64,000 nucleotides of DNA, from assembly GCF_009914755.1 (NCBI RefSeq), contig NC_060936.1, one strand, 5' to 3'. Within the stretch, counting starts at the first letter, position 1, and each line of letters begins with the position of its first letter. The translations under genes and the position numbers were made by a program. This stretch comes from the human T2T-CHM13v2.0 reference genome, Homo sapiens. Below, piece after piece: positions 25,922-48,860 of the stretch. Below the pieces are notes generated by a model, which worked only from the letters and a program-made list of their open reading frames with translations, searched no databases and was not told where the DNA came from.

Positions 25922-26023
25922 GAACCATCTCTTTTTGCTGTTGCCAAATTGTTAGAAACTGGTTTAGTTAATATGCACCGAATAGAAATTCTGTGGAGAC
26001 CTCTGACTGGCCATCTACTTGAG
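25922..26023 (+). CDS. MON2: MON2 coding exon (EPSLFAVAK...GHLLE), 102 nt
   Basis: tttctccctag acceptor, GAG|gtaaat donor. Confidence 0.95.
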
Positions 26024-26382
26024 GTAAATTCTCTTTCTTAAATATATTTAATTTTTTAATAAACATTTGCACACTGAGCTAATGATTCTAAATAGCCATT
26101 TGAAAAATCAGCATTAACTTTTTTTCCCCCTTTCCTGACTGTGTACTTACTTATGTTTGTACATTTTATCAAGGACTAAAGTTGTTTTGTAATTTATTTC
26201 ATGAAGGAATTGGTTGCTTTTATTGGCTGAAAATGGGTGACATTTTAAAGTGAGAAATATCAGTGAAGTCAGCTGTTACCTTGAGATGCCTTTCTTTTAT
26301 CATACAGTCTCTTGATCCACCTCACCTCAGTTTCAGATAGTTCTGAAACTTCAAGGCAGTTGGGGCATAGAGTTAATAGTAA

Positions 26383-26733
<351 letters not shown>

Positions 26734-26987
26734 TTGATTATGAGATAGCTTTCTGTGAAGGGGAAAACCTGTTTGGTAACACTAACTATAGATAGTGCTG
26801 GAGAATTTTACCTGGATTTACATTGTCTTACATTCAGGTTGAGGTAATTCTTAATAAATAGTTCCTGCTTAAAAACAAGCTGCTTCTGCCAGTATGTGTG
26901 TTTGTGTACAGTTTAGGTTTAGGTTACCATAGTTCTTTTGTGTTATTTAGAAACCTAGGAAAGGTATTATTCTTAGTAAGAAAAACA

Positions 26988-27300
<313 letters not shown>

Positions 27301-27590
27301 AAAACAGATGTACATGAGCTTTCCCCCCATTTTATTGGAATTACTTTTATGAATGATTAAAGGCTATGTGCAGATGCCTTCATTAATGGATGGTCTCATC
27401 AAAGGGCAACTCTGTGACATATTATTTGATTAATGAGGGTAAACTTAATTAAGAACCTTGGTATTAGCTTGCTTCTTTTGTTTACCCTGATATATAATTT
27501 ACTGTTATGAAATCCTTTCTTCTCTGTGAATTGTTTTAGTTTCATCTTTTTTCTTCTGTCTCTCTATTGCTTGCTCTTGCCCTTATTCAG

Positions 27591-27593
27591 AAG
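27591..27593 (+). CDS. MON2: Candidate 3-nt alternative microexon AAG (Lys)
   Basis: long pyrimidine tract with three TGC motifs, ttcag|AAG|gtaagc; phase-0 intron so frame-preserving. Confidence 0.75.
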
Positions 27594-27722
27594 GTAAGCT
27601 AACTTACATTTTGGGTGTAATTTTTCTTCCAACCCTTATTGAACATTTGATATAAAATGTAAAATTGATGTGTGATTCATAGCTTAAGTATACAAATTAA
27701 ACTTAATTTTATATACCTTCAG

Positions 27723-27833
27723 GTCTGCCAGCATCCAAACTCTCGAATGAGAGAATGGGGAGCAGAAGCTTTAACTTCTCTTATTAAAGCAGGATTAACA
27801 TTTAACCATGATCCTCCACTCTCACAAAACCAG
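27723..27833 (+). CDS. MON2: MON2 coding exon (VCQHPNSRM...LSQNQ), 111 nt
   Basis: ccttcag acceptor, CAG|gtaata donor; ORF 27672..27896. Confidence 0.95.
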
Positions 27834-28384: not shown

Positions 28385-28504
28385 TTTATTTTTTAATTTT
28401 TTAAATAAAAATATGGAGTACATCATGAATTTGCACGTCATCCTTGCCCGGGGGCTGTGCTCATCTCTGTATCATTTCATTATATGTGCTACTGAAGCAA
28501 GCAC
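28385..28504 (-). pseudogene. U6 snRNA retropseudogene with poly(A) remnant
   Basis: reverse complement reads GTGCTTGCTTCAGTAGCACATAT...ACAGAGA...CAAGGATGACGTGCAAATTCATGA...CCATATTTTT; TSD gaatgaggcattta at 28371-28384 and 28506-28519. Confidence 0.93.
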
Positions 28505-48842: not shown

Positions 48843-48860
48843 ATCCAACTATTTGCACCG
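48843..48860 (+). CDS. MON2: MON2 18-nt microexon (IQLFAP), probably alternative
   Basis: caatag|ATCCAACTATTTGCACCG|gtgagt; phase 0-0; peptide matches my recollection of the MON2 long form. Confidence 0.88.

What the first reader, a model, noticed from the sequence alone, without database searches (positions are those of the whole stretch)
27530..27605. Hidden 3-nt microexon (AAG = Lys) with an SRRM4-type acceptor
Seen: a pyrimidine tract of about 50 nt, three TGC motifs packed just before the AG (tattgc ttgc tcttgc), then ttcag|AAG|gtaagc with a strong donor. It sits in a phase-0 intron, 129 nt before the next exon, so inclusion changes HLLE-VCQH to HLLE-K-VCQH. Established: UGC motifs between the tract and the AG are the SRRM3/SRRM4 (nSR100) neural-microexon signature, and standard aligners often miss 3-nt exons. 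Inference: a neuron-specific one-residue insertion in a MON2 HEAT-repeat region. It may already be catalogued; I cannot check.
Basis: partly seen in the sequence, partly recalled or inferred. Interest (0 to 1): 0.8.

Follow-up and report, generated by a model that had tools for sequence, protein, structure and literature searches.

The report
Known SRRM4-dependent 3-nt MON2 microexon
The three-base exon is real and adds one lysine to the trafficking protein MON2 when the neuronal splicing factor SRRM4 is present, but it is already annotated and catalogued, so it is not a new find.

Summary
AAG at 27591-27593 is flanked by ttcag and gtaagc. It follows a 49-nt AG-free, about 82-85% pyrimidine stretch with three TGC at -23, -19 and -13. 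It lies in a phase-0 intron 129 nt before the next exon. It is the only one of 361 AG-NNN-GT sites in the window that passes a simple splice-signal filter.

- It is the RefSeq alternative exon 27591-27593 in the hub table.
- It is VastDB event HsaEX0039778, with identical intron geometry.
- Its inclusion goes from PSI 0 to 95.9 when SRRM4 is overexpressed in HEK293 cells (Head 2021 S4 Data).
- The mouse orthologue MmuEX0029412 is classed eMIC (Srrm3/4)-dependent (Torres-Mendez 2022).
- Protein models with HLLE-K-VCQH exist in mammals (19 of 120 hits) and ray-finned fishes (7 of 119).
- Non-vertebrate homologues lack the extra residue.

In an AlphaFold model the lysine falls in the last turn of a helix of a HEAT/ARM-like hairpin just before the HDS domain. 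I found no study of what the insertion does to the protein.

Verdict: already known; low interest.

The parts
25922..26023 (+). upstream constitutive MON2 exon, ends ...HLLE in phase 0
   Evidence: hub gene table; frame and splice sites checked
27541..27545 (+). candidate branch point (ttcat, A at 27544, 46 nt before the acceptor G). Inferred only.
   Evidence: read. It sits just after the last upstream AG. The distance fits the median of 45 nt predicted for human neural microexons (passages of PMC12871342).
27540..27588 (+). extended polypyrimidine tract / AG-exclusion zone (49 nt without AG, 82-85% pyrimidine), including a ctctct run at 27560-27565
27568..27580 (+). cluster of three UGC motifs (27568, 27572, 27578) between the tract and the AG: the SRRM4-type intronic enhancer
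   Evidence: Rarity. UGC dependence of SRRM4 as stated in passages of PMC13174390 and PMC12871342.
27589..27590 (+). acceptor AG (ttcAG)
27591..27593 (+). 3-nt microexon AAG = Lys (K823 of the 1718-aa human isoform)
   Evidence: RefSeq 'exons of other transcripts 27591-27593' (hub table). VastDB HsaEX0039778.
27594..27599 (+). donor gtaagc; with the exon it gives AAG|GTAAGC, 7 of 9 consensus positions
27594..27722 (+). short downstream intron, 129 nt
   Evidence: The same 130-nt offset appears in hg19.
27723..27833 (+). downstream constitutive exon, starts VCQH... in phase 0
   Evidence: hub table

Best explanation
This is the known alternative 3-nt cassette microexon of MON2 (VastDB HsaEX0039778; the RefSeq alternative exon), and it is switched on by SRRM4/SRRM3.

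How it most likely works:
- In cells without these factors the exon is skipped. A 3-nt exon cannot be defined across the exon, and its acceptor sits about 46 nt or more from the likely branch point.
- In neurons, SRRM4 (and SRRM3) engage the three UGC motifs that lie between the long pyrimidine tract and the AG. They promote early recognition of this 3' splice site.
- The upstream 1567-nt intron is then removed, and the near-consensus donor AAG|GTAAGC is used to remove the 129-nt downstream intron.
- The mRNA gains one in-frame AAG, and the protein gains one lysine between E822 and V823.
- That lysine sits in the last turn of the first helix of a HEAT/ARM-like hairpin, immediately N-terminal to the HDS domain of MON2.

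Shown: the sequence anatomy, the reading frame, the SRRM4 gain-of-function response, the mouse loss-of-function class, annotated K isoforms in mammals and fishes, and the position in a confident model.

Inferred: the branch point, direct SRRM4 binding to these particular UGCs, the order of intron removal at this exon, and any effect of the lysine on MON2 function.
For: Anatomy and frame. See the observation check; 1 of 361 AG-NNN-GT sites passes the filter.

Identity with the catalogued event: Tapial 2017 Supplemental Table S4 (PMC5630039, passages and header of file 7) lists MON2 HsaEX0039778. It is 3 nt, type MIC, with hg19 flanks at -1568 and +130, the same as 26023/27591 and 27593/27723 here. 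Values: N_samples 92, PercAS 14, AvPSI 9.27, MIN 0, MAX 98.34, classes SwitchAS and LFAS.

SRRM4 sufficiency: Head 2021 S4 Data (PMC7935315, file 7; passages, header, legend) gives PSI GFP 0, PSI SRRM4 95.855. The hg38 distance to the 18-nt MON2 exon is 21248, against 21252 in the window.

Srrm3/4 dependence in mouse: Torres-Mendez 2022 supplement (PMC8797185) lists Mon2 MmuEX0029412, 3 nt, MIC, 'eMICdep'. The definition rests on Srrm3+Srrm4 knock-down in N2A cells and Srrm4 knockout hippocampus and cortex (Methods passage).

A 2026 preprint (PMC13174390, passages) names Mon2 among genes with well-characterised SRRM4-dependent microexons.

Conservation: 19 of 120 listed mammalian hits carry HLLE-K-VCQH (607 hits in all, best 120 listed). 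So do 7 of 119 fish-side hits: paddlefish, Gambusia, Xiphophorus, Pygocentrus and two Cyprinodon species (904 hits, best 120 listed).

The lysine cannot come from the flanking splice sites. Shifting the upstream donor by 3 nt would add GTA, and there is no AG 3 nt before the downstream acceptor.

Structure: the AF2 model of a 473-aa deer fragment has mean pLDDT 88.4, and 99 over residues 251-260. It has helices 241-259 and 264-283, with the junction at E257|V258. Pfam HEAT matches 820-845 at 22.8 bits, under the 23.5 cut-off; HDS matches 852-931. The best fold match is Sec7, 8ucq, followed by armadillo repeats.
Against: I saw no tissue labels. The tables show switch-like use, but not that the high-PSI samples are neural.

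No orthologous DNA could be fetched, so conservation of the UGC cluster and of the AG-AAG-GT core rests on protein models only. Most K-bearing rows whose names I saw are 'isoform X' or 'PREDICTED' models; a few carry other names and one (P0099) has no name. I recall that such models can be guided by other species' proteins.

Most listed proteins lack the lysine (94 of 120; 112 of 119). This is expected for an alternative exon but does not measure its use.

Searches that found nothing: the MicroExonator supplement had 0 matches for Mon2 (file 6 not read), and the zebrafish microexon paper's supplement had 0 matches.

The preprint does not say which Mon2 microexon it means; the 18-nt exon is also SRRM4-responsive.

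The RNA fold of 27500-27730 is no more stable than shuffles (z -0.11), so there is no evidence for a structural element.
Confidence: 0.93

Rival explanations
1. The exon is real but is controlled mainly by other factors, with SRRM4 only one contributor. Candidates are relief of PTBP1 repression on the CU-rich tract, or RBFOX or NOVA.
For: The tract holds ctctct and tcttc runs. I recall these as PTBP1-type motifs; this was not tested. PMC12871342 lists PTBP1, SRSF11, RNPS1 and NOVA1 as linked to microexon regulation (passage).
Against: SRRM4 alone takes the exon from PSI 0 to 95.9 in HEK293. The mouse exon falls in the eMIC-dependent class. Co-regulation is compatible with the main reading rather than a replacement for it.
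Confidence: 0.25
2. The insertion is a conserved but functionally neutral by-product of the microexon programme. The lysine makes no difference to MON2.
For: I found no functional study. The full-text search for MON2 plus microexon gave 2 papers, of which 1 was listed, and MON2 plus micro-exon gave none. The residue sits at a helix end next to a turn, where one extra residue may be tolerated. Homologues outside vertebrates do without it: 59 of 62 rows in the alignment have a gap there.
Against: The same single lysine at the same junction is annotated from primates to paddlefish and teleosts. The exon reaches PSI 98 in some human samples. Such switch-like use and retention are unlikely for a neutral event, though that is an inference.
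Confidence: 0.3
3. The three extra bases are an alignment or annotation artefact, for example a shifted splice site, and not a separate exon.
For: Exons of 3 nt are hard to align. One macaque model (P0110) shows Q instead of K at the junction.
Against: Neither flanking splice site can give AAG by a 3-nt shift. The intron holds exactly one AG|AAG|GT, and it has strong signals. RefSeq and VastDB place the exon at the same base (hub table). SRRM4 switches it from 0 to 96.
Confidence: 0.02

Closest known systems
VastDB event HsaEX0039778 (MON2, 3 nt) and its mouse orthologue MmuEX0029412
   Same: It is the same exon: same length, same distances to the flanking exons (1568 and 130 nt), same gene. 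It is SRRM4-responsive and eMIC-dependent in mouse.
   Different: Nothing differs. The window is the T2T-CHM13 copy, while the tables use hg19, hg38, mm9 and mm10.
SRRM3/SRRM4 (eMIC)-dependent neural microexon programme (3-27 nt exons)
   Same: Very short in-frame exon, UGC motifs between an extended pyrimidine tract and the AG, a distal branch-point region, a strong donor, a short downstream intron and vertebrate conservation.
   Different: It sits at the lower size limit of 3 nt. It carries three UGC in 13 nt, where the passages I read speak of at least one.
The 18-nt MON2 microexon in the same window (48843-48860; HsaEX0039780, MmuEX0029413)
   Same: Same gene. It is also raised by SRRM4 (PSI 57.5 to 98.0) and is eMIC-dependent in mouse.
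   Different: It is broadly alternative (PanAS, mean PSI 60) rather than switch-like. It has one TGC at -24 and a weaker tract (0.60 pyrimidine), and it is part of the selected RefSeq transcript.

Membership tests
SRRM3/4 (eMIC)-dependent neural microexon | Cassette exon of 3-27 nt that keeps the reading frame | tested here: met
   3 nt, with phase 0 on both sides
SRRM3/4 (eMIC)-dependent neural microexon | UGC motif(s) between the polypyrimidine tract and the 3' splice site | tested here: met
   Three TGC at -23, -19 and -13. At least 3 TGC within 35 nt occurs at about 1% of AGs in the window. The motif's role is as stated in PMC13174390 and PMC12871342.
SRRM3/4 (eMIC)-dependent neural microexon | Extended branch-point-to-3'-splice-site region | tested here: inconclusive
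   There is a 49-nt AG-free pyrimidine-rich stretch and a candidate branch-point A at 27544. No branch-point predictor or mapping data were available. The published median for neural microexons is 45 nt.
SRRM3/4 (eMIC)-dependent neural microexon | Inclusion rises when SRRM4 is expressed | tested here: met
   By look-up of published data, not by my own experiment: PSI 0 (GFP) to 95.855 (SRRM4) in HEK293, Head 2021 S4 Data.
SRRM3/4 (eMIC)-dependent neural microexon | Inclusion falls when Srrm3/4 are depleted | tested here: met
   By look-up, for the mouse orthologue only: class eMICdep in the Torres-Mendez 2022 supplement, with the definition. The underlying PSI values were not seen.
SRRM3/4 (eMIC)-dependent neural microexon | Neural-enriched inclusion across tissues | tested here: inconclusive
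   Switch-like profile: min 0, max 98.34, mean 9.27, 92 samples. The sample identities are not in the table I read.
SRRM3/4 (eMIC)-dependent neural microexon | Conservation across vertebrates | tested here: met
   At the level of annotated proteins only: K at the same junction in 19 of 120 mammalian and 7 of 119 fish-side hits, and absent from non-vertebrate representatives. DNA-level conservation could not be tested, because no vertebrate genomes are held.
HEAT repeat (Pfam PF02985) | Pfam match at or above the curated cut-off | tested here: not met
   Residues 820-845 of P0097 score 22.8 bits against a cut-off of 23.5. The model nonetheless shows a helix-turn-helix hairpin in an ARM/HEAT-like solenoid, so 'helical-repeat region' is fair.

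The most novel reading that the evidence does not exclude
The neuron-specific lysine lies at the end of a helix next to the HDS domain. Together with the other SRRM4-responsive MON2 exons (18 nt and 81 nt) and the SRRM4-responsive 30-nt exon of its partner DOPEY1, it might retune the MON2-DOPEY-ATP9A recycling complex in neurons. In that case one added residue would change partner or membrane binding.
Probability: 0.2. Interest if true: 0.45.

Novelty: already known. Interest (0 to 1): 0.1.

Why it matters
As a discovery it does not matter, because the exon is in RefSeq, in VastDB and in published SRRM4 target lists. It does show that reading raw sequence can recover a genuine 3-nt exon from its splice signals. 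The open question is what one extra lysine does to MON2 in neurons.

Tried and rejected
- Irimia 2014 (PMC4390143) is not held.
I therefore could not see which Mon2 microexon it amplified.
- Supplements were also closed for the CHyMErA-seq paper PMC12868881. I could not see whether a Mon2 microexon was deleted there.
- The MicroExonator supplement gave 0 matches for Mon2, with file 6 unread. The zebrafish eLife supplement gave 0 matches.
- In Head 2021, files 13-18 were not searched. In Tapial 2017, file 1 was not searched.
- A 37-aa exon was too short for the protein search, so I used the next exon instead.
- RNA folding of 27500-27730 gave z -0.11, so I dropped a structure-based reading.
- The MON2 cell-biology paper PMC10511057 holds no domain mapping or isoform information in the passages found.
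- No K-bearing protein of 1200 aa or less was at hand, so I made no +K model.
- DNA-level conservation could not be tested, because no vertebrate genome collection is offered.

Full report
**1. Observation**

The window reads ...ctctctattgcttgctcttgcccttattcag|AAG|gtaagc, with AAG at 27591-27593.

A script measured the signals:
- TGC sits at 27568, 27572 and 27578, that is -23, -19 and -13 from the exon.
- The pyrimidine fraction is 0.85 over 40 nt and 0.82 over 50 nt.
- The previous AG is at 27538-39, so 49 nt are free of AG.
- The donor AAG|GTAAGC matches 7 of 9 positions of the recalled consensus.

Joining the annotated coding exons gives one open frame. Exon 25922-26023 ends in phase 0 and exon 27723-27833 starts in phase 0. 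The exon therefore adds exactly one Lys between HLLE and VCQH. The downstream intron is 129 nt.

**2. Chance**

- The window has 361 AG-NNN-GT sites (199 on +, 162 on -). One passes a simple filter of donor >=7/9, >=75% pyrimidine over 40 nt, YAG and 30 nt AG-free, and it is this site.
- Three or more TGC in the 35 nt before an AG occur at 41 of 4049 AGs on + and 27 of 4247 on -.
- Among 26 annotated acceptors in the window, this one alone has 3 TGC; the others have 0-2. It also has the highest pyrimidine fraction.
- The 1699-nt intron holds 7 AG-NNN-GT sites and only one AG|AAG|GT.
- A 3-nt shift of either flanking splice site cannot give AAG.

**3. What it is**

The hub's RefSeq table already lists 27591-27593 among exons of other transcripts, so the exon is not hidden. 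Three published tables identify it further.

- *Tapial et al. 2017* (PMC5630039, Supplemental Table S4; passages and header read). MON2 HsaEX0039778 is 3 nt, type MIC. Its hg19 flanks are 1568 nt upstream and 130 nt downstream, exactly the offsets 26023 to 27591 and 27593 to 27723 here. Over 92 samples, 14% have intermediate PSI, the mean PSI is 9.27, the minimum is 0 and the maximum is 98.34. The classes are SwitchAS and LFAS. Mouse MmuEX0029412 is similar: 127 samples, minimum 0, maximum 90.05.
- *Head et al. 2021* (PMC7935315, S4 Data: 314 exons with a PSI change of at least 25 on SRRM4 overexpression in HEK293; passages, header and legend read). The same event has PSI 0 with GFP and 95.855 with SRRM4. 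In hg38 it lies 21248 nt before the 18-nt MON2 exon, against 21252 nt in the window.
- *Torres-Mendez et al. 2022* (PMC8797185, supplement passage). Mouse Mon2 MmuEX0029412 is 3 nt with introns of 821 and 141 nt, and its class is 'eMICdep'. The Methods define that class from Srrm3+Srrm4 knock-down in N2A cells and Srrm4 knockout hippocampus and cortex.

A 2026 preprint (PMC13174390, passages) uses Mon2 as one of four genes with well-characterised SRRM4-dependent microexons.

**4. Conservation**

No vertebrate DNA collection is offered, so I used proteins.

A search with the next exon (58 aa, longer proteins) gave 607 hits, of which the best 120 were listed. Among these 120:
- 19 carry HLLE-K-VCQH. 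The rows whose names I saw are human (1718 aa, K823), gorilla, gibbon, Old World monkeys, tarsier, rat, jerboa and ground squirrel; one row (P0099) has no name.
- 94 lack the residue.
- 1 macaque model has Q.
- 6 do not span the junction.

A second search from a sturgeon protein gave 904 hits, of which 120 were listed. Of the 119 other than the query, 7 carry the K (paddlefish, Gambusia, Xiphophorus, Pygocentrus and two Cyprinodon species) and 112 do not.

A profile-free search of representatives gave 2052 relatives. I aligned 62 sequences:
- the 473-aa query;
- four vertebrate picks;
- 57 of the 150 listed representatives, chosen by eye as spanning the junction.

59 rows have a gap at the lysine column. 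Only the two K isoforms and one ambiguously aligned distant row have a residue there. The K-less length is therefore ancestral, and the insertion is a vertebrate addition.

Caveat: most K-bearing rows whose names I saw are predicted isoform models.

**5. Mechanism**

The anatomy is that of an SRRM4-type microexon: a long pyrimidine tract, UGC motifs next to the AG, a distal branch-point region, a strong donor and a short downstream intron.
- Passages read say that SRRM4 binds between the tract and the 3' splice site and needs UGC.
- They also say that neural microexons have predicted branch points at a median of 45 nt.
- Here the best candidate is the A of ttcat at 27544, 46 nt from the AG. 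This is an inference.
[quoted passage not shown] That would fit here but was not shown for this exon in what I read.
- Folding 27500-27730 gives no excess stability (z -0.11).

**6. Protein context**

- Pfam on the 1718-aa isoform gives DCB 10-184, HUS 212-385, HDS 852-931 and Mon2_C 935-1709. A HEAT match at 820-845 scores 22.8 bits, just under the 23.5 cut-off.
- By sequence, the only related solved structures are Sec7 (8ucq, aligned to 725-931) and BIG1 N-terminal fragments.
- The AlphaFold2 model is of a 473-aa deer fragment and was built with the 62-row alignment. It has mean pLDDT 88.4 and pTM 0.80.
- In that model the junction E257|V258 falls in the last turn of helix 241-259, followed by a four-residue turn and helix 264-283. 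pLDDT is 99 over residues 251-260.
- Foldseek finds Sec7 first (E 8e-9), then armadillo-repeat proteins and importins.

The lysine therefore lengthens the end of a helix at an inter-helix turn of an ARM/HEAT-like solenoid, next to the HDS domain. No +K model was made, because no K-bearing protein of 1200 aa or less was at hand.

**7. What is not known**

Full-text searches gave little:
- MON2 with microexon(s): 2 papers, 1 listed.
- MON2 with micro-exon: none.
- MON2 with SRRM4: 7 papers, 6 listed, of which only the preprint is relevant by title.

I saw no study of the +K isoform's function. Tables that I could not open may hold more.

**8. Verdict**

The feature is already known, so interest is low.

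Noticed in passing
window 48843-48860 (+): A second MON2 microexon, 18 nt (IQLFAP), is part of the selected transcript. It has one TGC at -24, a weak tract (0.60 pyrimidine) and a 59-nt AG-free stretch. Published tables give PSI 57.5 to 98.0 with SRRM4, PanAS with mean PSI 60, and the mouse orthologue as eMIC-dependent. The 1711-aa and 1717-aa isoforms differ by 6 residues, which would fit its skipping, but I did not check this.
   Followed up: partly
window 28407-28504 (-): A full-length U6 snRNA match (Rfam RF00026, 66.1 bits, E 1e-15) lies in the next intron. It agrees with the annotated pseudogene RNU6-399P.
   Followed up: yes
window 27594-27607 and 27553-27593 (+): In both the minimum-energy and the centroid fold, the microexon donor GUAAG pairs with CUUAC just downstream (5 bp, 4-nt loop). 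The acceptor plus exon (CAGAAG) pairs with CUUCUG in the tract. The whole region folds no better than shuffles (z -0.11), so this may be chance. Covariation could not be tested.
   Followed up: partly
protein P0110 (Macaca fascicularis model), residue 823: One gene model has Q instead of K at the same junction. No splice-site shift in the human sequence would give CAG through a canonical AG, so it is probably a modelling artefact.
   Followed up: no
Head 2021 S4 Data; outside the window: MON2 has a third SRRM4-responsive exon, 81 nt, PSI 0 to 32.9, about 54.7 kb upstream of the 3-nt exon. Its partner DOPEY1 has a 30-nt exon going from 0 to 71.2. Both members of the MON2-DOPEY complex therefore carry SRRM4-responsive exons.
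   Followed up: no
proteins P0056, P0051, P0082: One rabbit model joins HLLE directly to RLQLL, which skips the in-frame 111-nt exon 27723-27833. Two other models have VCQH but lack the text of the upstream exon.
   Followed up: no
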